Source: an uncultured Bacillota bacterium | GTDB taxonomy: Bacteria > Bacillota_I > Bacilli_A > RFN20 > CAG-288 | Direction: 5' to 3' | DNA: 64,000 bases | NCBI GenBank assembly: GCA_949290645.1 | Contig: CASESG010000001.1 | Coordinates: forward strand, 5,104 to 69,103 | Shown: positions 1-60,835 of the stretch, piece after piece | Layout of the letters: each line of letters opens with the position of its first letter | Numbering within the stretch: the first letter of the stretch is position 1 | The notes under the pieces: generated by a model | The model's input: the letters and a program-made list of their open reading frames with translations, nothing else | Told to the model about the DNA's origin: nothing | Database searches by the model: none | Position numbers and translations under genes: made by a program

Positions 1-2
1 AG

Positions 3-161
3 TTCGTTCCTCATGTCACGCTGTTTCGAAAAGCGCCTTCCGATTCTAGCCTGCCTTCGCTTGCGCTTTCGGAATTGAGAATCGCATTGGAGAAGTCCGT
101 CGTCTTGGAATCGATCCTGGGCGGACCCAATCCGGATTATCGGGAAGTCGCTCTTCCGTAA
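3..161 (+). CDS. 3' end of a 2H-phosphoesterase-like gene (ThpR/LigT-like RNA 2',3'-cyclic phosphodiesterase), truncated by the window edge
   Basis: Frame 3 is open from the window edge to TAA at 159-161. The translation FVPHVTLFRKAP...ESILGGPNPDYREVALP carries an H-x-T-x (HVTL) motif like the second motif of 2H phosphoesterases. Only 52 codons are visible. Confidence 0.4.
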   Translation, partial: FVPHVTLFRKAPSDSSLPSLALSELRIALEKSVVLESILGGPNPDYREVALP

Positions 162-174
162 ACCTCCTTCCAAG

Positions 175-1095
175 TCATTTCAGGCGAGACATCATCTTGT
201 CGATGCATTTTTTCTTCTGGCGATTGTCGGGATGGACATATAGGTTTAGCGTTGTTCCGATGTTGGCGTGTCCCAGGATGGCGCTGAGGGCTTTGTAATC
301 GCATCCGGCTTCCACGCAGCGCGTCGCAAAGCTGTGCCTCAGGCCATGGAAGCGGACTTGCGGCATGTCTAGTTTCTTGAGCAGTCGGGAATAATAGGCC
401 CGAAACGCCCTCGGTTCGAGAGGTTTCTTGCTGTTGGTGAGAACGTAATGGCTCGGCTCGGTGATTTTCCCGATGGACTTCAGCCTTCTCAGCAGAGAAT
501 GGGAAAGCGGGATCTCTCGTTCCGACGAGGAGGTCTTGGGCTTGTCGATGCGAATCTCGGATTTCTTGTTTTCGAAAGAGTAGACTCTCTGTATCGTTCT
601 CCGGATGGTGAGGATTCCCGCTTCCAGGTCGATGTCCTGAAAACGAAGAGAACAGACCTCACCGATTCGAAGGCCTTCTTCGAGGCAAAGGCTGATTCCA
701 AGATTGTGGAAGGAGAAATGGGTGTCCAGATAACGAAGAAGTTTCTTTTGTTCCTCCAACGTGAAAACCGGAAGGTTTCTTTTTTCCTCGAAGACCGGAT
801 ATTGAACGTCGACTTTTTGATAAGGCCAGTTCCCCTTTGAGCATCCGTAATAGTAGATGGATTGTGCCAAAGAGACACGACACTTGATGGTCTTTGCCTT
901 GAGGCCTCGCTTTTTCTGGGAAAGAGCGAAATCTTGCAATTGGCTTTTGAATGGGACTTTCATGGACTGGAAGTAATGGACGAAGACGTTTTCGATGCCC
1001 CATCGATAAAGGGCATATGTCGAGGGCTTGATGTAATCTTTCCGTTCCTCGAGAAAGTCATGGGCGATTTCCATAAATGATTTTTGCACGATCAT
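175..1095 (-). CDS. Tyrosine site-specific recombinase (integrase/invertase family)
   Basis: 306-aa ORF. The catalytic signature is readable: GLRIGE (Arg), HGLRHSFAT (H-x-x-R), LGHANIGTTLNLYVH (His/Tyr region). GGAGG abuts the ATG at 1095, so GTG at 1089 may be the true start. Confidence 0.9.
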   Translation of the reverse strand: MIVQKSFMEIAHDFLEERKDYIKPSTYALYRWGIENVFVHYFQSMKVPFKSQLQDFALSQKKRGLKAKTIKCRVSLAQSIYYYGCSKGNWPYQKVDVQYPVFEEKRNLPVFTLEEQKKLLRYLDTHFSFHNLGISLCLEEGLRIGEVCSLRFQDIDLEAGILTIRRTIQRVYSFENKKSEIRIDKPKTSSSEREIPLSHSLLRRLKSIGKITEPSHYVLTNSKKPLEPRAFRAYYSRLLKKLDMPQVRFHGLRHSFATRCVEAGCDYKALSAILGHANIGTTLNLYVHPDNRQKKKCIDKMMSRLK

Positions 1096-1111
1096 CCTCC
1101 GTCACTAATAT
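1084..1111 (+). promoter_or_regulatory. Candidate sigma-70-type promoter reading into the invertible cassette and methyltransferase operon
   Basis: TTGCAC (1084-1089), 16-nt spacer, TAATAT (1106-1111) on the + strand, just left of the left inverted repeat. Identified by eye only. Confidence 0.3.
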
Positions 1112-1157
1112 TGGCGTCCTGCCTCAATGACGTGCGGAGGCAAAAAGAAAAAGTGTA

Positions 1158-1544
1158 TTAAGCAGGATGCTTAAGGCTCAAAAGTTCCTTAAGTTGCCAC
1201 CAAAGGACGCCTTTTTTGCCCTCAATGCCTGTTTTCGAATGCGTTTTTCGCGCAACAGAATAATCTTGACAAGGAAAGCCAGCAGTCAAAAGGTTGAAAT
1301 CCGGAAGAAGGCTTTTGTCGACCTTGGCAATGTCAATGTTATCTAATCTTTCGGTATTGAAACCAAAACGTTTTTGATAGCAATCAAATGCATACTGCTT
1401 CTTTCTTCCAGGTTCCCATTGATTAGCGTAAACAAAATCAAAACGTTTCTTTTCTTTTGTCTTTCCATCGATGAGACGCACTTTGTTCAAACCGACACGG
1501 AATCCTCCGACTCCAGCAAAAAGTTCTATAGCCGTTGTTTTCAT
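1158..1544 (-). CDS. DNA (cytosine-5)-methyltransferase, N-terminal module (motifs I-IV), inverted relative to the rest of the gene
   Basis: 128-aa ORF MKTTAIELFAGVGGFRVGL...AGFPCQDYSVA...LKHPA. It has the AdoMet motif I (FAGxGG) and the catalytic motif IV (PCQ). It stops at TAA exactly at the IRL boundary. Confidence 0.85.
   Translation of the reverse strand: MKTTAIELFAGVGGFRVGLNKVRLIDGKTKEKKRFDFVYANQWEPGRKKQYAFDCYQKRFGFNTERLDNIDIAKVDKSLLPDFNLLTAGFPCQDYSVARKTHSKTGIEGKKGVLWWQLKELLSLKHPA
1159..1176. repeat. Left inverted repeat (IRL) of the intragenic invertible cassette
   Basis: TAAGCAGGATGCTTAAGG is the exact reverse complement of 1559-1576. The site itself has 7-bp palindromic arms TTAAGCA/TGCTTAA (1158-1164 and 1168-1174) around an asymmetric GGA centre. 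Confidence 0.9.
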
Positions 1545-1558
1545 AACTCAATTATAAT

Positions 1559-1576
1559 CCTTAAGCATCCTGCTTA
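1559..1576. repeat. Right inverted repeat (IRR) of the intragenic invertible cassette
   Basis: CCTTAAGCATCCTGCTTA is the exact reverse complement of 1159-1176. The central trinucleotide is TCC (inverted relative to IRL), which fits inverted rather than direct site orientation. Confidence 0.9.
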
Positions 1577-2432
1577 CGGAATATTGGAGAATGTCAATCG
1601 ACTGGTTCTTTCCCCTAAAAAACAACGGGGAAGAGACTTTGGAATCATCCTTCGATGTTTGGATGATTTGGGATACTCGGCATGCTGGAGAATATTGAAT
1701 GCTGCTGACTATGGATATCCTCAGCGAAGAAGAAGGACCTTCATTTTCATCTATAGAAACGATTTGAATTATTCGAAAGACATTTCAAAGCACGAGCCTG
1801 AGGATGTCCTTTTGAAGGAAAGCATTTTTGCGAAAGCGTTTCCTGTCGATTCTCTTTCCTCATCCCTTTCGACATACTCTTTGGTGGATGACTATCATGA
1901 CCTGGTCGAGGTCTCCGATCGCTTTCGTGCGCATTTCGATAATGCAGGCTGGATGCACAAGGGGATTGTTTACACAGCGAAAGTCAAATCAAAGGAAAAG
2001 CCGATGTGTCCGCTGTCGAACATTGTCCTTCCTTGCACGGACTCTTCTTTCTATCTGACGGACAAGCAGAGGGATCAGTTTTCCTATCTGCGGGGGAAGA
2101 AGAAAGTCCAGAGAAAAGCATCGACAGGGCTCTCCTATCAGTATTGCGAGGGAAGCATGTCTCCTTTTGATTCGCTGGACCTTCCCGGAAGAACGATGCT
2201 GACAAGCGAAGGCTCGGTCAATCGTTCGAGCCACATCATTCCCGATCCCAAGACAGGGCGTCTTCGTTTCCTTACGCCCGTGGAGTGTGAGAGGCTCAAT
2301 GGTTTTCCGGACGGATGGACCGATACGGGCATGCCACGATCCTCGCGCTATTTCATGATGGGAAATGCCCTTGTCTGTGGCATTGTCGAGAAGCTTGGCG
2401 ACCAACTTCTGAAAATCATGAAGGAGGATTGA
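1560..2432 (+). CDS. DNA (cytosine-5)-methyltransferase, C-terminal module (motifs VI-X plus target-recognition region), lacking its own N-terminus in this orientation
   Basis: Reads LKHPAYGILENVNRLV (motif VI ENV), YGYPQRRRRTFIFIY (motif VIII QRR), and FMMGNALVCGIVEKLG (motif X GNA). The track ORF 1374..2432 starts at a TTG, and its first ~62 codons are antisense to the N-terminal module. Confidence 0.85.
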   Translation, partial: LKHPAYGILENVNRLVLSPKKQRGRDFGIILRCLDDLGYSACWRILNAADYGYPQRRRRTFIFIYRNDLNYSKDISKHEPEDVLLKESIFAKAFPVDSLSSSLSTYSLVDDYHDLVEVSDRFRAHFDNAGWMHKGIVYTAKVKSKEKPMCPLSNIVLPCTDSSFYLTDKQRDQFSYLRGKKKVQRKASTGLSYQYCEGSMSPFDSLDLPGRTMLTSEGSVNRSSHIIPDPKTGRLRFLTPVECERLNGFPDGWTDTGMPRSSRYFMMGNALVCGIVEKLGDQLLKIMKED

Positions 2433-2434
2433 TA

Positions 2435-3151
2435 ATGTCCCTTGATGTCTCGTTTCTTCGTCAGTTTTCTTCTTTGATTCAGTCGGCCTATGCCATTCGT
2501 GGAAAGACGATCGAGGAGGTTCAGGCTTGGACTTCAACGGCGACGGTCTCCAAGGCGCAAAGTTATTTCGCAATCCGGAATTTCCTCAAGAAGGCCTGCC
2601 CCAACGATGGCTTGCAATCATTGCTGGATTATGCGGATATCGCTCTCAAGACGATCGCGTTGGACGAAAAAGGGAGGCTGACCGAGAGCATGTCTTTCTC
2701 TGCTTTCGAATTCTGCAAGGTGGCGACGGAATCCTGGGAATCATCGAGCGTTCAAGCGATGTTTTCGAAGAACTTTTGGTTCTTCGTGACCTATCAAAAA
2801 GGAGAAAAGAACGTTGTTCTCACGGACTTCTTCTGGCGACTTTCGAAAGAAGATTTGGCGTCTGTCCAGTGTTTGTACGAAAGCTACCAAAGAAAATTGT
2901 TGCAAGGAGAGGTCTATGCGAAAGACAAAAATAACGCTGTCGTTCCGGCCTTTCGTCTCGATGGATGCCGGGTGTCCCACATTCGCCCGCATGCCGCAAA
3001 CAGAGAAGATACCTTTCCCCTCCCTGTCGCCGATCGCCTGACGGGACGGAAAAGTGCGACGAAGCAATCCTTCTGGTTGGACAAAGCCTATCTTGAGGAG
3101 ATCGTGAGAATCAATCTTTCTCCCGTGGAAAAGGAGGTCATTGGAAAATGA
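2435..3151 (+). CDS. Putative MutH/Sau3AI-family restriction endonuclease or nickase (238 aa)
   Basis: ATG at 2435 lies 2 nt after the methyltransferase stop. The C-terminal SHIRPHAANREDTFPLP...TKQSFWLDKAYLEEIV resembles the MutH/Sau3AI tail (RPKAAN...FYLKK, recalled from memory). Its position directly behind an m5C methyltransferase fits an R-M pair. Confidence 0.45.
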   Translation: MSLDVSFLRQFSSLIQSAYAIRGKTIEEVQAWTSTATVSKAQSYFAIRNFLKKACPNDGLQSLLDYADIALKTIALDEKGRLTESMSFSAFEFCKVATESWESSSVQAMFSKNFWFFVTYQKGEKNVVLTDFFWRLSKEDLASVQCLYESYQRKLLQGEVYAKDKNNAVVPAFRLDGCRVSHIRPHAANREDTFPLPVADRLTGRKSATKQSFWLDKAYLEEIVRINLSPVEKEVIGK

Positions 3152-4374
3152 TGATCGACAAGGAAACTTTGGAGAAGAAAGCGACGAAGCCGCTCAGAAT
3201 TCACGATCAGCTTCAAACCTTCGACACCTATGCGATTCCTCTTGAGAAGCTCTTTTACAACGATCGAAACGGTCGTATCGCGACGTTCATCGATGAGGAA
3301 GAACTGCGCAAAGACCATTCCCGAGAGGAAATCAAGAGGCTGATGGAAGAGGACATCGCCAGGTACAACGACTTCATCGGCAAGGCCATCAAGGGGGCAG
3401 AAAAGCCGGACTCTTACGAAAAGACCCTGAAAGACATCGAGCACAAGGGACAGATGGTCGCGGGCGTCGTGCTGGATGACGGAAGGATCATCGACGGGAA
3501 TCGAAGGTTCACTGTCCTTCGGGAACTCTACCGGAAGAAGGCCGAGCAACGGTTCTCGACGTTCGAAGCGGTCATCCTTCCGGTGCCTGCCTCGGAAACG
3601 GAGCAGAAAGCCATCACCCTTCTGGAACTGGAGCTGCAGCACAACGTCGACAATCAAAGGGACTATTCCCCCATCGATCGACTGGTCGACTTCTACAAAA
3701 AATGCTGCGATGAAAGGACAAGGACGATCTCGGAAGAGGAATACCGATCCTATGCCAACGTTCCGGCGAAAGAGCTGGCAAGCCTCAAGAGACAGACGGA
3801 AATCATGTTGGAATACTTGGAATGGAGGGGACAGCCGAAAGCGTTCTATCTTCTCAAGGAAGAAGATCTCAACGGACCGCTTGTCGAACTTGCCAATGCG
3901 AAAACGAAATTCTCCGAACACAACTGGCTGGAATTCCGGGACTATTTCTTCGCCCAGATCACCTTAGTGTCCGGAGACAAGACAAGAAACATCCGCAACC
4001 TCATCAAGCTGGCCAAGGAATCCCCTGAGCATGTCCGCCAAATGGTGCAGGCGTTGGACAAAGAAGGAGCCTTTCTCGGAAAGGTCGATGACATTCTGAG
4101 GAAGGAAAAGGAAGGGGTGCAGACTCCGGAAGATACCCACGAAAGGCGGAAATTGGGAGAGGACTTCCTGTCCTTGCAAAAGGAGGCGATTTACCAAAAG
4201 GAGAAGGAGAAGAGCCAGAACAGTCCCCTGGAGAAGCTGCGAAAGGCGCAGACGCTTTGCGATGAAGTCCGTTGGCAGGACATCAAGGAGACGACCGGAG
4301 AAAACAGGAAAGAGATCCAGAAAATCCTTGCGGAGATCACTTGCGCCCTGGAGAAGATCAAGGGCTATTTCTAA
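3148..4374 (+). CDS. ParB/Srx-fold (ParB N-terminal nuclease-like) domain protein, 408 aa
   Basis: The ATGA overlap with the upstream gene suggests translational coupling. VVLDDGRIIDGNRRFTVLRELY resembles the ParB-box DGxxR region. The remainder is helical with no family I recognise. Confidence 0.6.
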   Translation: MMIDKETLEKKATKPLRIHDQLQTFDTYAIPLEKLFYNDRNGRIATFIDEEELRKDHSREEIKRLMEEDIARYNDFIGKAIKGAEKPDSYEKTLKDIEHKGQMVAGVVLDDGRIIDGNRRFTVLRELYRKKAEQRFSTFEAVILPVPASETEQKAITLLELELQHNVDNQRDYSPIDRLVDFYKKCCDERTRTISEEEYRSYANVPAKELASLKRQTEIMLEYLEWRGQPKAFYLLKEEDLNGPLVELANAKTKFSEHNWLEFRDYFFAQITLVSGDKTRNIRNLIKLAKESPEHVRQMVQALDKEGAFLGKVDDILRKEKEGVQTPEDTHERRKLGEDFLSLQKEAIYQKEKEKSQNSPLEKLRKAQTLCDEVRWQDIKETTGENRKEIQKILAEITCALEKIKGYF

Positions 4375-6972
4375 ATGGAAAGAAAGGCTTCCTTGGCGGA
4401 TCTGAGCTTTCAGGGGACCTACGATCCCGCGGTTCCCGGACATGATGCCATCGAGGAGCTTTACCTCCCCTGCCTTTCGCTGGCAAAACGATACGATCGC
4501 GTCTCCGCCTATTTTTCCTCCCGTTCCTTGCAGAGCTATGCCAAGGGCCTCCACGCCTTTGCGAGAAACGATGGTCGCATCCGTTTTGTCTTCTCCAATC
4601 AAATTTCGCCAAAGGAAATGGATGACATCGTAGAGGCCTACAAAAGACGTGAGGCACAGATGGTAGAAGACCTGAAGAAGCATTCCGATGAACTCAATGA
4701 CGACTTTGAAGTTGCCAATCTTTCTTATCTGATTCGGCATGGAATCGCAGAAGTGAAGATTGCCTTCATGACGAACGACCTGGATTCCCTGTTTCATCAA
4801 AAGTTCGGGATCTTCACGGATGAACAGGGCTGCTCGGTTGCCTTCAGCGGTTCCAGCAACGAGACCCTGGAGGGCCTGAATTACAATTCGGAACTTCTGG
4901 ATGTCTTCACCCCGAAGGACTCGATGTCGAAGATCGAGGATCGCAAGCAGCGCTTCGAGAAGATTTGGAACGGAACCTATAGTCCCAAGATGCGCGTCTT
5001 CTCGCCCAGCGAGTCCTTTTTCGAGGAACTGGTCGCCTATGATCGTGGGCGTGTCTTCTCCTCTTTGCAAGAGTACCTGGAATGTCGCAAGGAACGGCTT
5101 TCCCTGGACCATGTCCTTTTGGATGTCGATGAACGAGCCAACCATCTTCTCGTCGAGAACCTCCTCTGCCATCCTTCGTGCGACCGTGCCCTGTCGGGGC
5201 TGATGTCTCTCAAGAAAGGCCGGAAAGTCGGTTCCTGGAGCTATCGCTTCCCCGAGATTACCCTTTCCTTGGCACGGGAGATTCAGGAGGCTCTGCGCCG
5301 TCGATTGATTCCGTTCCGAATCTCATCCTCATTGCAATCGGTCCTCGACCAGCTCAACCGGAAGCTGGAGCGCCGGCTCCAATGGGCGCAGAAGATCAAG
5401 CGCGGGGAAGACGAGGATCTCTGGCATGATGACTATGAGGCTTTCCGAAGAGTCGTCGAAAAGAACACGATGGTCCCTCTGAAGGACTTCCAGATGCGTG
5501 CGGCATACTTCCATTATCGATTGATGTCTTCGGCCGATTATTCCGTTCCTGGCTCGGGAAAGACTTTCATCGCCTATGGCCTCTTTGCCTATCTGCGCGC
5601 GACCGGCCAGGCCCATCGCTTGGTCGTTCTCTCTCCGCTCAACGCTTTCATGGCCTGGGAGGAAGAGGGACGGAAGATCTTTGGCGCGGAAAAGCCCCTT
5701 CATTTCTTCAACAGGGAAAAGCAGGATGGCGATTGTGCGGAAACACTGCTCCGCGATCGATACGATGTCTACTTGTTCAATTATGAGTTTCTGAATTCCG
5801 AAGAGAAAGCGGAAGTCGTCCGAAGACTGCTGGATGACAAGACGATGATCGTCTTCGACGAAATTCATCGCATCAAGAATCCGGAAGGAATGCGCGCCGG
5901 ATGGGCCAAACGACTGTTTCGCACCTATCCCCGACCCCTCTTTCGCCTGGCGCTGACGGGAACGCCCTTGCCCAATTCCTTTCAGGACATCCAGAACACG
6001 ATTGAGATTCTCTACTCCGATGACAAGGACCTGTTTGACGCCTTCTGTTCGAAGAATCTTCGGGAGGCCGACCGAAACGAGGCCGTTGCCCAGGAGATTC
6101 GGCGTCAGTTGTATCCGACTTTCATCCGCGTGACCAAGAGCCAATTGCAGATTCCGGAAGCCGAGAAGGACGATCTCGAGACTCTTGCCGTCGAACCGGA
6201 CGAGGGGCAAAGACGGCTGCTTGGAGAGCTGTGGCGCAAGATTCAAAATCCGCTTCTCCTCTTTGTCCGCCTGATCCAGGCGTCCTCGCACCCGGCCTTG
6301 CTGGAAAAGGAAATCGATGACGGAACGTGGGAGGAACTGGACCTCTCGCTCGAGGGCAAGCCGACCGAAAGGTGGACCTTGTCCGCCGAAAGCCAGGAAT
6401 ACCTTCGTCTCCATCCGCTGTCCCGAAAGACTCTGACGGCCCTTTCTCATATCCAATCCGCCGCACAAGAAGGGAGGAAGGCCCTGCTCTGGTGCCTGTT
6501 CCTGGACACGATCGATTCTTGCCAAGGATGGCTGGAGAAGGAGGGTGTCCGCGTTCTCTCCGTGACGGGAAGGGATTCGGAGCGGCAAAGGGAGGAGAAG
6601 ATTCGTCTCTTTCGCGACGGTGATGTCTCGGTCCTTGTCACCAACCCCAACACGTTGGCGGAATCGGTGTCCTTGCACCAGACATGCCACGAAGCGGTCT
6701 ATCTCGAATATGGCTTCAACCTCACCTACCTGATCCAGTCCAAGGACCGCATCCATCGCGTCGGTCTGCCTCCGGGCACCAAGACCCGTTACCTCTTTGC
6801 CATCACGGAAGGCGATGAAGCGCGCGGTTCTTCGATCGATCGTCGGATTCTCGAACGGCTGGAAAGAAAGAACGAAAGGATGCGCAAGACGATCGAAAGC
6901 GACGACTTGGCTTTGGAAGTCGATCGTCAGACGCTCCTGGAAAGCATTCGGGATATTTTGGAAAATCCATAA
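4375..6972 (+). CDS. Fusion of an N-terminal PLD-family nuclease domain and an SNF2/SF2 helicase (865 aa)
   Basis: Starts directly after the upstream TAA. PLD HxK motif: LFHQKFGIFTD...FSGSSNET. Helicase motifs: VPGSGKTF (I), VFDEIHRIKN (II, DEIH), LTGTPLPNS (III), and C-lobe VLVTNPNTLAESVSLH...LIQSKDRIHRVGL (V-VI). Confidence 0.8.
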   Translation: MERKASLADLSFQGTYDPAVPGHDAIEELYLPCLSLAKRYDRVSAYFSSRSLQSYAKGLHAFARNDGRIRFVFSNQISPKEMDDIVEAYKRREAQMVEDLKKHSDELNDDFEVANLSYLIRHGIAEVKIAFMTNDLDSLFHQKFGIFTDEQGCSVAFSGSSNETLEGLNYNSELLDVFTPKDSMSKIEDRKQRFEKIWNGTYSPKMRVFSPSESFFEELVAYDRGRVFSSLQEYLECRKERLSLDHVLLDVDERANHLLVENLLCHPSCDRALSGLMSLKKGRKVGSWSYRFPEITLSLAREIQEALRRRLIPFRISSSLQSVLDQLNRKLERRLQWAQKIKRGEDEDLWHDDYEAFRRVVEKNTMVPLKDFQMRAAYFHYRLMSSADYSVPGSGKTFIAYGLFAYLRATGQAHRLVVLSPLNAFMAWEEEGRKIFGAEKPLHFFNREKQDGDCAETLLRDRYDVYLFNYEFLNSEEKAEVVRRLLDDKTMIVFDEIHRIKNPEGMRAGWAKRLFRTYPRPLFRLALTGTPLPNSFQDIQNTIEILYSDDKDLFDAFCSKNLREADRNEAVAQEIRRQLYPTFIRVTKSQLQIPEAEKDDLETLAVEPDEGQRRLLGELWRKIQNPLLLFVRLIQASSHPALLEKEIDDGTWEELDLSLEGKPTERWTLSAESQEYLRLHPLSRKTLTALSHIQSAAQEGRKALLWCLFLDTIDSCQGWLEKEGVRVLSVTGRDSERQREEKIRLFRDGDVSVLVTNPNTLAESVSLHQTCHEAVYLEYGFNLTYLIQSKDRIHRVGLPPGTKTRYLFAITEGDEARGSSIDRRILERLERKNERMRKTIESDDLALEVDRQTLLESIRDILENP

Positions 6973-7027
6973 GACAACCGCTTTTCCGTCCGATGTTTCG
7001 GCCATTGCCGTGTTCGCCTTTTGAGCG

Positions 7028-7036
7028 TGGTAAAAT
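7028..7036 (+). promoter_or_regulatory. Candidate extended -10 promoter element for the DUF2130-like gene
   Basis: TGgTAAAAT at 7028-7036, followed by GGGAGGA (7045-7051) and ATG at 7060. No convincing -35 was seen. Confidence 0.3.
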
Positions 7037-7059
7037 AATGTCATGGGAGGAAGGCAAAC

Positions 7060-34343: not shown

Positions 34344-36002
34344 ATGGACATCCAAAGCAGCATTCGTCAGGAATTGCAGAGAATTGCCAACGAACTTGGA
34401 ATCGAAGTCAGCCTCGAGCAGATCCAGCTCAGCAAGAGCGACAATCGGGAACACGGCGACTATGCCAGCAACATCGCCTTCCAGAAGGCCAAGAGCATGG
34501 GAAAGAAACCCATCGACCTGGCCCAGGAATTCGCTTCCCGCTTCCAGTGCGAAGGCATCGAGAAGGTCGAGGCGGTCTTCCCCGGCTTCCTCAACTTCTT
34601 CCTGAAGTCGGACGAGATGGGAGCGGTCATCGAGGAGATTCTCGAGAAGAAGGAACACTACGGCGATCTCGAGTTCGGAAAGAACGTCCGGGTCGACATC
34701 GAGTATGTCTCCGCCAATCCCACCGGAACCCTCCATCTTGGCCATGCCAGAGGCGCGGCCTTGGGAGACAGCATCAGCCGTATCTTCAAGAAGGCGGGGT
34801 ACGATGTCACAAGGGAATATTACATCAACGATGCCGGAAACCAGATTGACCATCTCGGTGAGTCCTTGATTGCTCGTTATCTCGAGCTCTTCGGCATCCG
34901 GAGAGAGGTTCCCGAGGATGGCTACCATGGCGAGGAAATCATCGAAGTCGCCAAGAAGATGAAGGAGGAATACGGAGACAAGTTCGTTCAGGATCCCGAT
35001 TCCCATCTTGCCTTCTTCAAGGAATATGGTTCCAAGATGCTCCTGGAATTCATCAAGAGGGACTTGGCGGAGTTCCGCGTCAAGCAGGATGTCTACACCT
35101 CCGAGAAGGCCATCCGGGCCAGGGGCGGGGTGGAGAAGACCTTGGAGAAGCTCAAGCCCTATCTCTACGAGAAGGACGGAGCCCTGTTCTTGAACACGAC
35201 CAAGGACGGAGATGACAAGGACCGCGTCCTGGTCAAGTCGGATGGCTCCTATACCTACCTTCTTCCCGACATCGCCTATCACGTCGACAAGTTCGAGCGT
35301 CACTTCGACTTGCTGATCGATCTCTTCGGCGCCGATCACCACGGCTACGTCACCCGCTTGAAGTCGGCCCTTTCCGACCTCGGCTATGACAGCAAGAGAT
35401 TGATCGTCTCCCTGGTCCAGATGGTCCGTCTCTTCAAGAACGGCGAGGAGTTCAAGATGAGCAAGAGGACCGGAAACGCGATCTCGATGAAGGAACTGGT
35501 CGAGGAGTGCTCGGTCGATGCCATCCGCTACTTCTTCGTCTCGAGAAGCGGAAACTCGCATCTCGACTTCGATATCGACCTGGCCAAGACCCTCGGAAGC
35601 GAGAACCCGGTCTACTACGCCCAATACACCCACGCCCGTCTCTGCGGCATCCTGACAAACGGTGCCTCCTTCCTGCCCTATGACAAGAAGGGAGACAAGC
35701 TCGTGAGCAAAAGCGAGAAGAACCTCCTTCTGCTTCTGAAGGAATATCCCAAGGCCATCACCTCGGCCTGCCAGGAGATCGAGCCCTACAAGATCACCAA
35801 CTACGTCCATTCCCTTGCGGTCAGCATCAACGACTTCTACACCAAGTGCCGTGTCCTGGATGATGCCGATGTCGCTTTGTCCAAGCAGCGTCTGGCCCTG
35901 GTGGATGCCTGCCGGATCGTCCTCAAGGATGCCTTGTCCCTGATCGGTGTCTCGGCTCCGGAGCGGATGATGTCCAAGGAGAAGGAAGTGTCTTCCCTTT
36001 GA
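34344..36002 (+). CDS. argS: Arginine--tRNA ligase
   Basis: SANPTGTLHLGHARG (HIGH) and a FKMSKRTG (KMSK-like) motif. 552 aa. Confidence 0.95.
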   Translation: MDIQSSIRQELQRIANELGIEVSLEQIQLSKSDNREHGDYASNIAFQKAKSMGKKPIDLAQEFASRFQCEGIEKVEAVFPGFLNFFLKSDEMGAVIEEILEKKEHYGDLEFGKNVRVDIEYVSANPTGTLHLGHARGAALGDSISRIFKKAGYDVTREYYINDAGNQIDHLGESLIARYLELFGIRREVPEDGYHGEEIIEVAKKMKEEYGDKFVQDPDSHLAFFKEYGSKMLLEFIKRDLAEFRVKQDVYTSEKAIRARGGVEKTLEKLKPYLYEKDGALFLNTTKDGDDKDRVLVKSDGSYTYLLPDIAYHVDKFERHFDLLIDLFGADHHGYVTRLKSALSDLGYDSKRLIVSLVQMVRLFKNGEEFKMSKRTGNAISMKELVEECSVDAIRYFFVSRSGNSHLDFDIDLAKTLGSENPVYYAQYTHARLCGILTNGASFLPYDKKGDKLVSKSEKNLLLLLKEYPKAITSACQEIEPYKITNYVHSLAVSINDFYTKCRVLDDADVALSKQRLALVDACRIVLKDALSLIGVSAPERMMSKEKEVSSL

Positions 36003-36070: not shown

Positions 36071-36499
36071 ATGCCTGTGAACAAACTGTCCTTGGTGGAT
36101 GCCGCCTATCAAGTCCTGACCCGTCGCTATGAGGATCGCAAGGAAAGCGATCCGATGCCGTTCAACGAACTGCTTCTGGCGGTCGGGGAACTGGTCGGGA
36201 TCGAAGACCAGAACGACCTGCTCAACCTCGCCTCGGCCTTCTACACGTCCCTGACGCTCGACGGAAGGTTCGTCATCAAGGAGAACAATACCTGGGTCCT
36301 TCGCGACCACGAGCTCTTCGCCAACATCCACATCGACATGAACGCCGTCTATGCCGAGGATGAGGATGAGGACGAGGAAGACGAGGACGAAGAGAAGGAT
36401 GACGAGGACGAGGATGGCATCGACCGAGACGAGGAGGACGATCTCGACTTGGGAGACAAGACCATCATCGATCCGGACGACGAAGATTCCGACGACTGA
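36071..36499 (+). CDS. rpoE: RNA polymerase delta subunit
   Basis: HARE-HTH-like N-terminus (LSLVDAAYQVL...PFNELL) and a long Asp/Glu tail (DEDEDEEDEDEEKDDEDED). Confidence 0.85.
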   Translation: MPVNKLSLVDAAYQVLTRRYEDRKESDPMPFNELLLAVGELVGIEDQNDLLNLASAFYTSLTLDGRFVIKENNTWVLRDHELFANIHIDMNAVYAEDEDEDEEDEDEEKDDEDEDGIDRDEEDDLDLGDKTIIDPDDEDSDD

Positions 36500-53733: not shown

Positions 53734-53830
53734 GTTTTTTCCCTCCAGGATTCATGGCAATCGAAACACGTCGATTTGAAGGAAAAGGTCATTCGATCGC
53801 CTGAGTCATGATCTTGACGTTTTTGCCGGT

Positions 53831-54461
53831 GTAGAAGACGAATCTGAAATCACAATACTACCAAACTCGACGACTATCAGTTCGAGCGGGTCTACCGTAG
53901 AAGACGAATCTGAAATCACAATACTACCAAACCGGGGATGACGGGAACTATCAGGGCGACATGTAGAAGACGAATCTGAAATCACAATACTACCAAACTT
54001 TCTGATACCAGTATTCGAGAACGATTTTGTAGAAGACGAATCTGAAATCACAATACTACCAAACAAATGCCGACTGAAAGACTTAGCAATCAAGGTAGAA
54101 GACGAATCTGAAATCACAATACTACCAAACCCAAGCCGTTGTCAAATGTTGGCCCTATGGGTAGAAGACGAATCTGAAATCACAATACTACCAAACTCTC
54201 TCCAATAGTTTTAGGAAGGTCCGTATGTAGAAGACGAATCTGAAATCACAATACTACCAAACTATTTCCGCAAATTGAATCCGCTCTCGTCTGTAGAAGA
54301 CGAATCTGAAATCACAATACTACCAAACATATAGAGTTCCGTTCACTGTCGTGTTCTTGTAGAAGACGAATCTGAAATCACAATACTACCAAACATGTCT
54401 TCACCGTTGTAACTTTTAGGCATGAGTAGAAGACGAATCTGAAATCACAATACTACCAAAC
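53831..54461 (-). CRISPR. CRISPR array: 10 identical 36-bp repeats and 9 spacers (eight of 30 bp, one of 31 bp)
   Basis: The + strand repeat is GTAGAAGACGAATCTGAAATCACAATACTACCAAAC, at 53831, 53897, 53963, 54029, 54095, 54161, 54227, 54293, 54359 and 54426. Its reverse complement GTTTGGTAG...CTAC has the GTTT...AC polarity of type II-A repeats, so transcription is inferred on the minus strand from the csn2-proximal end. Confidence 0.97.
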
Positions 54462-54509
54462 CTCAATTGATGAGATTTTCAGTGGTTTTTTGCGATTTCC
54501 TATATTATT

Positions 54510-55208
54510 TTAGTTTTCCTTGTCATTGATTGCAATGTGTTGTTCATACAGATCTTCATCGATTCGGATGACTCTTTCACTTGTCGAATTGATGTCTTTT
54601 ATATGACTGGACAGAAGGAGAAAAGAGATTTCTGCACGCCTCATCTCCTGTTGGAAGAGATGAAATTCTTCTTTGTCCAGAAAATCGTGAAGGTTGTAGA
54701 AGAGAAAGACTTCCTTTTTATAGACATGTCGGATGAGACGGATTTTCATGACCAGGTTTTCGAGCCAATTCTCTTCTTGAAGAAGAGGGGCAAGGGCAAA
54801 GGCCTTGAGAATGGTAGTGAGGGAGGTTTCGTTGTCGATGGTTAGAGGGACGGGATAGTCATAGAGAGTCTCATGCAGGAATTCCTGAAGCCTGTTCGTG
54901 ATATCCTGGAAGGAATCCTTTTGTTCGTCGCTCAAGCGGGAAGGGATGTCTTTCTGAAGAAAGGTTCCGATCTTCTTGTCATCCAAAGGACAGTGGAAGA
55001 CATCGAAGAGAAAGAAACCGACTTTCGAGAAGTCCTTTTCCTTGCCGTTATCAAAGTAGTGGAAGAATTCCTCTCCTTCTTCCAGCTGTGTCTCGATTCC
55101 GTGAAGAAAATAGCGAAGCAAGGAAGTGTTTTCGATGACGAGATGTGTCGTTTTCTCTCCATCGAGTGTCAGTTCGGCCTCGATTCTGTGATGCTTCAGC
55201 GTTTTCAT
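54510..55208 (-). CDS. csn2: Csn2 (type II-A adaptation protein)
   Basis: 232-aa ORF immediately downstream of cas2 (4-nt overlap) and 48 bp from the array. Size and position fit Csn2. Sequence similarity was judged only loosely by eye. Confidence 0.75.
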   Translation of the reverse strand: MKTLKHHRIEAELTLDGEKTTHLVIENTSLLRYFLHGIETQLEEGEEFFHYFDNGKEKDFSKVGFFLFDVFHCPLDDKKIGTFLQKDIPSRLSDEQKDSFQDITNRLQEFLHETLYDYPVPLTIDNETSLTTILKAFALAPLLQEENWLENLVMKIRLIRHVYKKEVFLFYNLHDFLDKEEFHLFQQEMRRAEISFLLLSSHIKDINSTSERVIRIDEDLYEQHIAINDKEN

Positions 55209-55543
55209 AATTCGACGACTTTCTTGTCCGTGTGGACGATGTCGGTCGTGAATTCGCCCAAGAGGTTTTCGATCCCGGCGAACTGCTTCTCCGTGACGGT
55301 CAGAAGGGAGACCATTCCCTTGGGAGGAAGGTGGGCATCGATGGCCTTTCTCATCCGGTCGATCGCCGCATCGTTGACGGAGAGTTTGACATAGACGGAT
55401 TCCTGAAACATGATGAAACCGATGCTCTTGAGAAACTTCACGAACTGGCGGTAATGCCTTCGGTTTGCTGCGGTCAACGTCGGAAGGTCGAACATCAGGA
55501 TGGATCGCATATATCTATAGGTGCTCATCTGCGAATGTGACAT
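55205..55543 (-). CDS. cas2: Cas2
   Basis: STYRYMRSILMFDLPT...FQESVYVK is the typical Cas2 N-terminus. The true start is possibly ATG 55528. Confidence 0.9.
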   Translation of the reverse strand: MSHSQMSTYRYMRSILMFDLPTLTAANRRHYRQFVKFLKSIGFIMFQESVYVKLSVNDAAIDRMRKAIDAHLPPKGMVSLLTVTEKQFAGIENLLGEFTTDIVHTDKKVVEL

Positions 55544-56390
55544 TCAATAGAAGCTCAGGACGTTCTTCATTGATGGCATTGATGGCCGAGCAGACGAAAC
55601 CATGGATGGCATTGTCCAGGAGCATCTTTCTTTCTCCGCAGCGAACCATTGTCGAGAGGACATCCAACATCTGGGAGTTGAATTCTTCTTTTTTGAAATC
55701 AGGTTCCAAGGCTTTCGCATCGACAAAAGGTCGCAAAGGTTCCATCAAGTCACAGCCGAAGTTGAATGGGTTGCTCTCGCCGATGTGATGGATTCCGAAT
55801 TGGGGAAGGTATCCCAGCGCAGCGATTTCCCGATTTACGGCGCTTAGAATGATGGAATATCCGTAGTCGAGATAGACATTCTCTTCGCAGGAAAAGTCTC
55901 TTCGGTCGAAGGCTGGTCCGAACAGCATAGGGAAATAGACTTTCGCTGCCAATCCTTCCCGGTTCTCCTTGTCTCCCTCTTGGACCTCTTGCTCATAGGT
56001 GTCCAGAAACGACGAGTCCTTTCCACGCTTTCTCAGAAGTCCTGCTTGGTTATGAATCTTCTGTTGTACGATCCCTTTCCAGACCTTGTCCTTGATTTCC
56101 TGAGACCATTCGATCTGCTTCTTGATCTTCTTGTAGGAATCCTTCGATCCGGCATAGGGTTGGATTTCTCCAGAGGGATTGTGCTTGGAATCGCAGAAGA
56201 TGACGCGGATGTGATGATTCAGGAGTTCGGAAATCAATGCGGTCGTCACGCAGACCTGCTGACTTTCGACGATGAGGATGGAAATCTCATCGAGAAGGAT
56301 CTTGGTCTCGGCATCTTTCATGCACACGAGATAGTTGAGTCGTGTCTCAAGCTTGCAGCGGCTGTTGATCTTCACGATGCGAAAAGCCAT
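55515..56390 (-). CDS. cas1: Cas1
   Basis: 291 aa with a type II Cas1-like sequence (FRIVKINSRCKLETRLNYL...GIHHIGESNPFNFGCDLMEPLRPFVD). Confidence 0.9.
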   Translation of the reverse strand: MAFRIVKINSRCKLETRLNYLVCMKDAETKILLDEISILIVESQQVCVTTALISELLNHHIRVIFCDSKHNPSGEIQPYAGSKDSYKKIKKQIEWSQEIKDKVWKGIVQQKIHNQAGLLRKRGKDSSFLDTYEQEVQEGDKENREGLAAKVYFPMLFGPAFDRRDFSCEENVYLDYGYSIILSAVNREIAALGYLPQFGIHHIGESNPFNFGCDLMEPLRPFVDAKALEPDFKKEEFNSQMLDVLSTMVRCGERKMLLDNAIHGFVCSAINAINEERPELLLNVTFADEHL

Positions 56391-56394
56391 GGCG

Positions 56395-60798: not shown

Positions 60799-60806
60799 GA
60801 GGTGAT

Positions 60807-60835
60807 TTGACTCCTTTTCGTGCAACTGGTATCAT
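60807..60835 (+). promoter_or_regulatory. Candidate promoter of the tracrRNA
   Basis: TTGACT (60807-60812), 17-nt spacer, TATCAT (60830-60835). Divergent from cas9. Confidence 0.5.

What the first reader, a model, noticed from the sequence alone, without database searches (positions are those of the whole stretch)
1158..1577. Intragenic inverton: the 5' third of a C5-cytosine methyltransferase gene is flipped between 18-bp perfect inverted repeats beside a tyrosine recombinase
Seen directly in the sequence:
- Motifs I (FAGVGG) and IV (FPCQ) are encoded on the minus strand (1158-1544). Motifs VI (ENV), VIII (QRRRR) and X (GNAL) are encoded on the plus strand (1560-2432).
- The two parts are separated by TAAGCAGGATGCTTAAGG (1159-1176) and its exact reverse complement (1559-1576).
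- Both halves translate the repeat as LKHPA. Flipping 1177-1558 would therefore fuse ...WWQLKELLSLKHPA to YGILENVNRLV... in frame, giving a complete methyltransferase of about 413 aa with canonical motif order.
- Each repeat is a near-palindrome (arms TTAAGCA/TGCTTAA) around an asymmetric 3-bp centre, GGA versus TCC. This is the architecture expected of a tyrosine-recombinase core site and defines inverted orientation.
- The recombinase gene (175-1095) lies 63 bp away.

Inference: this is a programmed ON/OFF switch (a phase-variable methylome), captured here in the OFF state, rather than a random rearrangement.
Basis: partly seen in the sequence, partly recalled or inferred. Interest (0 to 1): 0.85.

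Follow-up and report, generated by a model that had tools for sequence, protein, structure and literature searches.

The report
Invertible on/off switch in methyltransferase gene
A 382-bp DNA segment carrying the start and first third of a cytosine DNA-methyltransferase gene sits backwards between two perfect 18-bp inverted repeats next to a recombinase gene, and other metagenome assemblies hold the same segment flipped the other way, so it is very probably a real flip-flop switch for DNA methylation, caught here in the off position.

Summary

- **In-silico flip.** Flipping 1177-1558 gives an intact 413-aa C5 methyltransferase that matches PF00145 end to end.
- **ON state exists in nature.** L146 (99.9% identical flanks) carries exactly this inversion, with breakpoints inside the repeats. 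L147 and L148 show the same inversion in a sister lineage. Two scaffolds (L018, L149) mix ON-type and OFF-type junctions.
- **Four diverged lineages keep the module.** All four (dS >1) retain the recombinase, the split gene and perfect 17-19-nt repeats. Every repeat substitution is mirrored in the partner repeat. Both gene halves are under purifying selection (dN/dS about 0.1).
- **Recombinase family.** Its nearest relatives outside these lineages (47-53% identity) sit beside Type I hsdS shufflons.

- The element is not strictly intragenic. In ON, the left repeat lies 14 nt upstream of the start codon, so this is a "partial intergenic" inverton that carries the start codon and a conserved ATTATAAT box.
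- The downstream 238-aa "Sau3AI-like" protein resembles only the non-catalytic C-terminal domain of Sau3AI.
- OFF is the majority state in the assemblies seen.

I rate it a new variant of a known kind: recombinase-driven ON/OFF switching of a Type II-style 5mC methyltransferase.

The parts
175..1095 (-). Tyrosine recombinase (306 aa), the presumed invertase
   Evidence: PF00589 E=4.6e-30. The catalytic R, K, H-x-x-R, H and Y all align with Tn1549 Int (6EMY). It is adjacent to the split gene in all four lineages. Relatives at 47-53% identity lie beside Type I hsdS shufflons.
1096..1158 (.). 63-nt spacer between the recombinase start and the left repeat. It is the 5' region of the recombinase gene and, in ON, the sequence upstream of the methyltransferase gene.
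   Evidence: Sequence. The predicted fold pairs CCUCCG with the recombinase Shine-Dalgarno CGGAGG, but this is not significant (z=-1.5). No consensus promoter was called here.
1159..1176 (+). Left inverted repeat (IR_L), TAAGCAGGATGCTTAAGG
   Evidence: Exact reverse complement of 1559-1576. It is the breakpoint of the natural inversion seen in L146.
1177..1558 (-). Invertible segment (382 bp), here in OFF orientation. It carries the palindromic ATTATAAT (1551-1558), the start codon (1544-1542) and codons 1-122 of the methyltransferase (motifs I and IV).
   Evidence: The ORF 1158-1544 (-) is 128 aa. This segment is reversed in L146 relative to the window (window 1159-1576 matches L146 5357-4940). 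ATTATAAT is conserved in all four lineages, 6-8 nt from the start codon, with no Shine-Dalgarno sequence.
1559..1576 (-). Right inverted repeat (IR_R); it encodes LKHPA of the methyltransferase
   Evidence: It is the second breakpoint of the inversion in L146.
1560..2432 (+). Fixed 3' two-thirds of the methyltransferase gene (motifs VI, VIII, target-recognition region, X)
   Evidence: In frame from LKHPAYGILENV to the stop. No conserved start codon or ribosome-binding site of its own in the four lineages. It forms the full 413-aa protein P0246 in the ON contig L146.
2435..3151 (+). 238-aa homologue of the Sau3AI C-terminal (effector) domain, first gene downstream of the methyltransferase
   Evidence: NF040973 positions 298-474 of 475 only. 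It aligns to Sau3AI residues 317-503 (PDB 2REU, 4PXG). Its sequence I-A-L-K-T aligns with Sau3AI's own C-terminal-domain I-V-V-K-T, so Ala sits at the position I take to be the catalytic Glu of the E-x-K motif, by comparison with the N-terminal domain. Homologues follow the methyltransferase gene in L139 and L142.
3148..4374 (+). 408-aa protein with faint ParB-like similarity; its start overlaps the stop of the previous gene
   Evidence: TIGR03764 E=0.007 only. 35% identical to the 417-aa protein in the same position in L142.
4375..6972 (+). 865-aa PLD-nuclease plus SNF2-helicase protein (N-terminus PbeA-like), last gene of the abutting series
   Evidence: PF13091, PF00176 and PF00271. PADLOC PbeA E=4.7e-65 over residues 6-224. 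The block 2459-7043 is missing from the L011 lineage.

Best explanation
This is a site-specific invertible DNA switch that turns a Type II-style cytosine-5 DNA methyltransferase gene on and off.

The 382-bp cassette between the two 18-bp inverted repeats carries a conserved ATTATAAT box, the start codon and the first ~122 codons (S-adenosylmethionine-binding motif I and catalytic Cys motif IV). The rest of the gene (motifs VI-X and the target-recognition region) is fixed.

The adjacent tyrosine recombinase belongs to the group that inverts Type I hsdS cassettes. It most likely exchanges strands inside the repeats.
- **ON orientation:** the cassette is joined in frame, through the repeat that encodes LKHPA, to the fixed part. 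This gives a 413-aa enzyme of the M.Sau3AI-related family, probably GATC-specific.
- **OFF orientation (this window):** the cassette points toward the recombinase gene. Only a 128-aa fragment and a start-less C-terminal part remain.

In this lineage three further genes abut the methyltransferase gene: a Sau3AI-C-domain-like protein, a ParB-like protein and a PLD-SNF2 protein. They are probably co-transcribed with it, so the switch may gate a whole methylation-linked defence module. In a sister lineage the methyltransferase is solitary.

**Shown:** the repeats, the reconstituted gene, both orientations in nature, co-varying repeats, and selection on both halves.
**Inferred:** that this recombinase does the inversion, that switching is reversible within clones, where the promoter lies, the GATC specificity, and the downstream consequences.
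For: 1. **Geometry.** The perfect 18-nt repeats are unique in the window. The flipped ORF matches PF00145 and TIGR00675 end to end.
2. **Natural ON state, window lineage.** L146 (ERZ16268243) matches window 1-1176 forward, 1159-1576 reversed and 1559-2442 forward, with flanks 99.9% identical. Both junctions are base-for-base as in the in-silico flip. It encodes P0246, 413 aa, which differs from the predicted protein by one residue.
3. **Natural ON state, second lineage.** L147 and L148, from two different samples, compared with L011 show the same repeat-bounded inversion.
4. **Mixed junctions in one scaffold.**
   - L018 carries the right flank (reverse-complemented) + repeat + cassette left end, which is an ON junction, together with an OFF right junction.
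   - L149 carries an ON left junction together with an OFF right junction.
5. **Four lineages keep perfect repeats with mirrored changes.** The window, L004, L011-017 and L139 have 17-19-nt perfect repeats. G>A in the left repeat is matched by C>T in the right repeat in L011. AAGG>TGTGAT occurs in both arms in L139.
6. **Purifying selection.** All four flipped ORFs are intact at 413-415 aa. dN/dS is 0.07-0.12 for both halves, with dS>1.
7. **Recombinase.** The catalytic residues are intact. It is linked to the split gene in every lineage, including L139, whose genomic context is different. Relatives at 53% and 47% identity flank hsdS shufflons.
8. **No independent C-terminal half.** There is no conserved start codon or ribosome-binding site for it.
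Against: - **OFF dominates.** OFF is the consensus in most assemblies: about 12 OFF contigs, 3 ON and 2 mixed. The full-length homology search listed no ON-state protein; the ON forms surfaced only as non-representative cluster members.
- **No read-level data.** ON and OFF contigs could be different fixed strains. The two mixed scaffolds also contain clear assembly artefacts: a duplicated repeat in L018 and a non-repeat strand switch in L149.
- **No promoter called.** The consensus scan found no promoter at the cassette in either orientation.
- **Palindrome not conserved.** The internal palindrome of the repeat is not kept in the L011 lineage, so the core-site model is unproven.
- **Cassette patch in L146.** The L146 cassette differs from the window at 8 clustered positions, all of which match the L011 lineage. 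This shows strain mixing or recombination in these samples.
Confidence: 0.85

Rival explanations
1. Strain-level inversion polymorphism without programmed switching. A rare inversion between the short repeats became fixed in some strains, and ON and OFF contigs simply come from different strains.
For: - ON and OFF contigs come from different samples or assemblies.
- L147 and L148 differ from L011 by 1-3% outside the cassette.
- No read-level heterogeneity could be examined.
- OFF dominates.
Against: - The same repeat-bounded inversion occurs independently in two lineages.
- The repeats stay perfect, with mirrored substitutions, across lineages with dS>1, although the left copy is non-coding in ON.
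- Both gene halves remain under strong purifying selection in lineages whose consensus is OFF.
- A dedicated recombinase of the hsdS-invertase group travels with the locus.
- Two scaffolds mix junction types within one sample.
Confidence: 0.08
2. Functional split enzyme. The arrangement seen here is the working state, and the 128-aa N-terminal fragment and the C-terminal part are made separately and assemble into an active methyltransferase.
For: - Both halves are under purifying selection.
- OFF is the commonest assembled state.
- From my own knowledge, not tested here: two-subunit C5 methyltransferases exist (M.AquI).
Against: - The C-terminal half has no ATG, no conserved alternative start and no ribosome-binding site before motif VI in any lineage. 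In L139 the frame is open for only 11 codons upstream, and the first start codon lies after ENV.
- This reading does not explain the conserved perfect repeats, the recombinase, or the existence of fused ON genes.
Confidence: 0.05
3. Assembly artefact. The inverted segment is a mis-assembly at a short inverted repeat.
For: Two related scaffolds (L018, L149) are visibly mis-joined around the repeats.
Against: - The OFF arrangement is reproduced in more than 10 independent assemblies from ENA, Logan and NCBI, across four diverged lineages.
- The ON arrangement is reproduced in three assemblies.
- An 18-nt repeat is shorter than the usual assembly k-mers, so junction k-mers must come from reads (inference).
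Confidence: 0.02

Closest known systems
Type I hsdS 'epigenetic invertons' (e.g. S. pneumoniae SpnD39III/ivr with PsrA/CreX; the B. fragilis system; survey in PMC7672463)
   Same: - A tyrosine recombinase next to a DNA-methylation gene inverts a segment between short inverted repeats and changes the methylome.
- The recombinase here is 47-53% identical to recombinases that sit beside hsdS shufflons.
   Different: - The target is a single-chain C5 (PF00145) methyltransferase, not hsdS.
- There are no alternative target-recognition cassettes. The outcome is ON/OFF, through separation of catalytic motifs I-IV from VI-X, not a change of specificity.
- The repeat sequences are unrelated.
Gene-altering programmed inversions in Type IIG/IIL, BREX PglX and DISARM DrmMI methyltransferases (Milman et al. 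2023, PMC9881135)
   Same: - Inversions with one repeat inside a Type II-class methyltransferase gene.
- Some of those loci also neighbour a PLD plus SNF2 helicase gene, as this one does.
   Different: - Those swap a gene segment with a silent pseudogene cassette to alter N6-adenine enzyme specificity.
- Here there is no partner cassette, and the enzyme is a C5 cytosine methyltransferase that is simply broken or restored.
Intragenic and 'partial intergenic' invertons (Chanin et al. 2023/2024, PMC10028968)
   Same: - An inversion that changes what a single gene encodes.
- It fits their 'partial intergenic' class, with one repeat in the coding sequence and one outside.
   Different: - Not entirely within the gene, so it is not an intragenic inverton in the strict sense.
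- That text does not mention methyltransferases (0 occurrences).
Promoter invertons such as E. coli fimS (FimB/FimE) and the C. difficile RecV switches
   Same: A small cassette (about 300-400 bp) between short inverted repeats, flipped by a tyrosine recombinase, giving ON/OFF expression.
   Different: - Those cassettes are non-coding promoter or leader elements.
- This one carries the start codon and a third of the coding sequence, so OFF physically splits the gene.
Phasevarions: simple-sequence-repeat ON/OFF switching of Type III mod (and some Type I/IIG) methyltransferases
   Same: ON/OFF switching of a DNA methyltransferase that could reset genome-wide methylation.
   Different: - The mechanism here is recombinase-mediated inversion, not slipped-strand frameshifting.
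- The modification is 5mC rather than 6mA.
- The regulon effect is untested.

Membership tests
C5 cytosine DNA methyltransferase (Pfam PF00145 / TIGR00675 dcm) | Full-length match to the family profile | tested here: met
   After flipping, PF00145 positions 3-323 of 324 (E=3.5e-59) and TIGR00675 positions 2-329 of 329 (E=4.6e-64, above cut-off).
C5 cytosine DNA methyltransferase (Pfam PF00145 / TIGR00675 dcm) | Canonical motif order I (FxGxGG), IV (PCQ), VI (ENV), VIII (QRR), X (GNA) | tested here: met
   The order is met only in the flipped sequence. It is also present in the natural ON protein P0246.
C5 cytosine DNA methyltransferase (Pfam PF00145 / TIGR00675 dcm) | 5mC-forming activity and recognition sequence | not testable with these tools
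   GATC is inferred only because homologues at 57-61% identity sit beside Sau3AI-family endonuclease genes.
Tyrosine recombinase (PF00589) | Catalytic domain with R, K, H-x-x-R, H/W, Y | tested here: met
   PF00589 E=4.6e-30. GLRIGE, PKTSSS, HGLRHSF, GHANI and LYVH align to the same positions of Tn1549 Int, 6EMY.
Tyrosine recombinase (PF00589) | Catalyses inversion at these repeats | not testable with these tools
   Supported only by conserved linkage in four lineages.
Inverton (invertible phase-variation element) | Segment bounded by inverted repeats | tested here: met
   18-nt perfect repeats, with 0 expected by chance.
Inverton (invertible phase-variation element) | Both orientations exist, with breakpoints in the repeats | tested here: met
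   L146 against the window, and L147/L148 against L011.
Inverton (invertible phase-variation element) | Both orientations within one population or clone (reversibility) | tested here: inconclusive
   The mixed-junction scaffolds L018 and L149 suggest it. They are partly mis-assembled, and no reads were available.
Intragenic inverton in the strict sense (both repeats inside one coding sequence) | Both repeats lie within the coding sequence | tested here: not met
   In ON, the left repeat ends 14 nt upstream of the start codon. The element therefore falls in the 'partial intergenic' class of PMC10028968.
Type I hsdS shufflon / epigenetic inverton | Target is hsdS, with alternative target-recognition half-genes | tested here: not met
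   No Methylase_S domain at the locus. Only the recombinase is related.
Canonical Sau3AI-type Type II restriction-modification system | Cognate catalytic endonuclease gene | tested here: not met
   The 238-aa protein matches only the C-terminal effector domain of Sau3AI. It has Ala at the position inferred to be the catalytic Glu, where Sau3AI's own C-terminal domain has Val. Full-length enzymes of about 500 aa are present in non-inverting relatives.
Phasevarion | Methyltransferase switching changes expression of a regulon | not testable with these tools
   Needs methylome and transcriptome data from locked ON and OFF strains.

The most novel reading that the evidence does not exclude
A recombinase of the hsdS-invertase group has been recruited to a classical single-chain C5 methyltransferase. 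This would create a previously undescribed kind of 5mC phase switch in uncultured gut-type Firmicutes.

In the window lineage the switch would gate a whole, unnamed methylation-linked defence operon: the methyltransferase, a non-catalytic Sau3AI-C-like GATC sensor, a ParB-like protein and a PLD-SNF2 nuclease-helicase. In a sister lineage it would toggle an orphan methyltransferase, that is, a 5mC phasevarion.

Because the cassette carries its own leaderless promoter and start, OFF may redirect transcription into the recombinase gene, giving orientation-dependent feedback on switching.
Probability: 0.3. Interest if true: 0.75.

Novelty: new variant of a known kind. Interest (0 to 1): 0.6.

Why it matters
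- **A new route to methylome switching.** Known phase-variable DNA methylation works through simple-sequence repeats (Type III mod) or through specificity shuffling (Type I hsdS, Type IIG, BREX, DISARM). A clean ON/OFF inversion that splits the catalytic core of a Type II-style C5 methyltransferase adds another route, this time for 5-methylcytosine.
- **A testable model.** The switch is small (418 bp plus one recombinase). Its ON and OFF sequences are both known from nature, so it is directly testable and could be used as a compact genetic toggle.
- **An annotation lesson.** Gene callers report such loci as two methyltransferase fragments or pseudogenes. Similar switches are therefore probably overlooked in genome annotation and in restriction-modification surveys.
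- **A possible defence-cost mechanism.** If the downstream PLD-SNF2 module depends on the methyltransferase, the switch would also show how bacteria turn a costly defence system on and off.

Tried and rejected
- **Metagenome scan with the repeat pattern.** The 17-nt degenerate pattern was too unspecific: 120 single chance hits, none related by BLAST.
- **Genome scan with the 18-mer.** It gave one true relative (L004) and nine chance hits.
- **Full-length homology search.** It listed no ON-state protein, because the cluster representatives were fragments. The ON forms only appeared when cluster members were listed.
- **Plasmid and phage collections.** Nothing related, so there is no sign that the module is plasmid- or phage-borne.
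- **Promoter and terminator scans.** No consensus promoter at the cassette in either orientation, and no terminator between the methyltransferase gene and the next three genes above shuffle expectation. The ATTATAAT / leaderless reading therefore stays an inference.
- **Split-enzyme idea.** Rejected for lack of any conserved start for the C-terminal half.
- **The 352-aa ORF 1374-2432.** It runs antisense through the cassette and is not conserved; in L139 the frame closes 11 codons upstream. I treat it as a by-product of the reading frame.
- **Hairpin / anti-Shine-Dalgarno pairing upstream of the recombinase.** Not significant (z=-1.5) and not conserved in L004 by eye.
- **Repeats of related hsdS shufflons (L150, L152, L153).** They share no sequence with this repeat.
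- **Organism name.** None could be obtained. The only labelled relative is an "uncultured Firmicutes bacterium" MAG.
Full report
**1. Observation**

- TAAGCAGGATGCTTAAGG lies at 1159-1176 and its exact reverse complement at 1559-1576.
- It is the only 18-nt inverted repeat within 3 kb anywhere in the 64-kb window. A shuffle test expects 0.00 matches even at two mismatches.
- The minus-strand ORF 1158-1544 (128 aa) carries FAGVGG and FPCQ and ends SLKHPA-stop.
- The plus-strand frame from 1560 reads LKHPAYGILENV..QRRRR..GNAL and runs to the stop at 2432.
- Reversing 1177-1558 in silico gives a 413-aa ORF starting at flipped position 1191. It matches PF00145 over positions 3-323 of 324 and TIGR00675 over 2-329 of 329.
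- The ORF at 175-1095 (-) is a tyrosine recombinase (PF00589). Its catalytic residues all align with those of Tn1549 Int. It starts 63 nt from the left repeat.

**2. Both orientations exist in nature**

A full-length homology search showed only fragments at high identity: a 352-aa and a 245-aa C-terminal product, with the best full-length hits at 61%. Listing the members of those 90% clusters revealed full-length proteins hidden behind fragment representatives: P0246 (413 aa), P0247 (411 aa) and P0248 (412 aa).
- **L146.** P0246 differs from my in-silico protein by one residue. Its contig L146 (ERZ16268243) aligns to the window as 1-1176 forward, 1159-1576 reversed and 1559-2442 forward, with flanks 99.9% identical. 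Both junctions equal the in-silico flip base for base.
- **L147 and L148.** P0248 lies on two contigs from two other samples. Compared with the OFF contig L011, they show the same repeat-bounded inversion in a second lineage.
- **Hybrid scaffolds.** L018 joins the reverse-complemented right flank, through the repeat, to the left end of the cassette (an ON junction), and also has the OFF right junction. L149 has an ON left junction and an OFF right junction.
- **Caveat.** Both hybrids contain obvious mis-joins: a duplicated repeat in L018 and a strand switch at a non-repeat position in L149. I read them as signs of mixed orientations in those samples, not as real molecules.

**3. Evolutionary evidence that the repeats are functional**

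Four lineages carry the recombinase plus the split gene:
- the window lineage;
- L004, an "uncultured Firmicutes" MAG, about 72% nucleotide identity;
- L011-L017, about 77%;
- L139, whose N-terminal fragment is 69% identical and which sits in a different genomic neighbourhood.

| Lineage | Repeat sequence | Length (nt) |
|---|---|---|
| Window | TAAGCAGGATGCTTAAGG | 18 |
| L004 | TAAGCAGGATGCTTAAGGA | 19 |
| L011 | AAGCAGGATACTTAAGG | 17 |
| L139 | AAGCAGGATGCTTTGTGAT | 19 |

- The repeats are perfect in every lineage. Each difference between lineages is present in both copies.
- In ON, the left copy is non-coding, so protein constraint cannot explain this.
- All four in-silico flipped genes are intact at 413-415 aa. 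dN/dS is 0.07-0.12 for both the cassette part and the fixed part, while synonymous sites are saturated.
- In L011 the G>A change breaks the internal palindrome TAAGCA-GGA-TGCTTA but keeps the two copies identical. This suggests that identity between the copies (the crossover region) matters more than the palindrome. That is an inference.

**4. The recombinase**

Beyond the four lineages (100, 78, 66 and 47% identity), the nearest relatives are a 53% homologue and a very large group at 46-48%. The two I looked up lie next to Type I systems with several oppositely oriented hsdS genes and long inverted repeats, which are classical hsdS shufflons. So the invertase belongs to the hsdS-inverting group and has a new target here. 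The hsdS repeats share no sequence with this one.

**5. What the cassette carries**

- Between the right repeat and the start codon lies ATTATAAT (1551-1558). It is its own reverse complement and is conserved in all four lineages, while the few bases next to the start codon vary.
- It ends 6 nt (8 nt in L139) before the start codon, and there is no Shine-Dalgarno sequence. By contrast, the recombinase gene and the 238-aa gene have GGAGG.
- The simplest reading is a -10 box giving a leaderless mRNA, so the cassette would carry the expression signals as well as the coding sequence.
- The consensus scan did not call a promoter in either orientation, because no -35 is present. This step is therefore inferred.
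- In OFF, the cassette reads toward the recombinase gene on the same strand. Whether this feeds back on recombinase expression is unknown.
- Because the left repeat is upstream of the start codon in ON, the element is a "partial intergenic" rather than a strictly intragenic inverton in the terms of PMC10028968.

**6. What is switched**

- Homologues of the methyltransferase at 57-61% identity lie divergently from ~500-aa Sau3AI-family endonuclease genes and have no recombinase. The enzyme therefore belongs to the M.Sau3AI-related group and probably methylates GATC. This is an inference.
- In the window, the gene is followed with abutting or overlapping stops and starts by three genes:
  - a 238-aa protein;
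  - a 408-aa weakly ParB-like protein;
  - an 865-aa PLD-SNF2 protein whose N-terminus matches PADLOC PbeA.
- The 238-aa protein matches only the C-terminal effector domain of Sau3AI. Its I-A-L-K-T aligns with Sau3AI's C-terminal I-V-V-K-T, so it has Ala at the position I take to be the catalytic Glu. It is probably a DNA-binding protein and not a nuclease.
- Homologous 236-241-aa genes follow the methyltransferase gene in L139 and in L142. In L142 a full Sau3AI-like enzyme is also present.
- The L011 lineage lacks this 4.6-kb block altogether. There the switch controls a solitary methyltransferase.

**7. Rivals**

- **Fixed strain polymorphism.** Not excluded without reads. It fits poorly with co-varying repeats, selection on both halves, recurrence in two lineages and the linked invertase.
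- **Split but active enzyme.** Unlikely, because the C-terminal half has no conserved start codon or ribosome-binding site.
- **Assembly artefact.** Excluded by reproduction in more than ten independent assemblies.

**8. Comparison with what is known**

Already described:
- inversions driven by tyrosine recombinases at Type I hsdS (PMC7672463);
- inversions in Type IIG, BREX and DISARM N6-adenine methyltransferases (PMC9881135);
- invertons near restriction-modification genes of Types I-III in gut metagenomes (PMC11741434).

All of those swap specificity segments. I found no paper in the held library that combines cytosine-5 methyltransferases with invertible switches. The intragenic-inverton paper does not mention methyltransferases. 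I therefore rate this a new variant of a known kind.

**9. Context**

The window is chromosomal. It holds argS, ychF, polA, dnaE and a type II CRISPR-Cas locus. Its source is a 340-kb contig present in NCBI, ENA and Logan, without a usable name.

Noticed in passing
window 53830-54462 and 54510-60825: CRISPR array of about 9.6 units with the 36-nt repeat GTAGAAGACGAATCTGAAATCACAATACTACCAAAC. It lies next to a 1476-aa Cas9 (56395-60825, minus strand), with two smaller ORFs in between. This is a type II CRISPR-Cas locus.
   Followed up: partly
window 2435-6972: Three abutting genes follow the methyltransferase gene: a non-catalytic Sau3AI-C-domain-like protein (Ala at the inferred catalytic Glu position), a 408-aa weakly ParB-like protein, and a PLD-SNF2 protein with a PbeA-like N-terminus. 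They look like an unnamed methylation-linked defence module. A similar methyltransferase + 236-aa + 417-aa series occurs in L142.
   Followed up: partly
window 2459-7043 versus L011 5080-5127: A 4585-nt presence/absence difference. The sister lineage has 48 nt where the window has the three downstream genes, so the methyltransferase there is solitary.
   Followed up: partly
window 1209-1249 versus L146: The ON contig L146 differs from the window by 8 clustered substitutions inside the cassette, against 2 in about 2060 nt of flanks. All 8 equal the bases of the L011 lineage. This is either a recombination or gene-conversion patch between co-occurring lineages, or a mixed-strain consensus.
   Followed up: partly
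L149 about 2040-2045 (outer edge of the left repeat): An extra TAA directly outside the left repeat (gtattaaTAAGCAGG, against gtattaagcagg in the window and L146). It may be real variation at the recombination site or an assembly quirk.
   Followed up: no
window 35510-35540 and 36398-36428: A 17-nt perfect inverted repeat (31 nt at 81%) between the 3' end of argS and the acidic-repeat start of a DHH/DHHA1 gene. It is unexpected by chance but lies in essential genes. It is probably a by-product of GAGGAC-type coding repeats.
   Followed up: partly
window 1096-1150 (minus strand): In the recombinase 5' region, CCUCCG can pair with the Shine-Dalgarno CGGAGG (MFE -23.8 kcal/mol, z=-1.5, not significant). 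A different small hairpin occupies the same place in L011 and L004.
   Followed up: partly
proteins P0150 and P0191 (homologues): Other M.Sau3AI-family genes, on 8.8- and 16-kb contigs, end in a frameshifted tail (..KKTSIYFIRKCR....KKTTIYFIRECR) at the same motif V/VI boundary where the repeat sits here. This may reflect homopolymer slippage at the KKP codons, which could be another way of switching this gene family.
   Followed up: no
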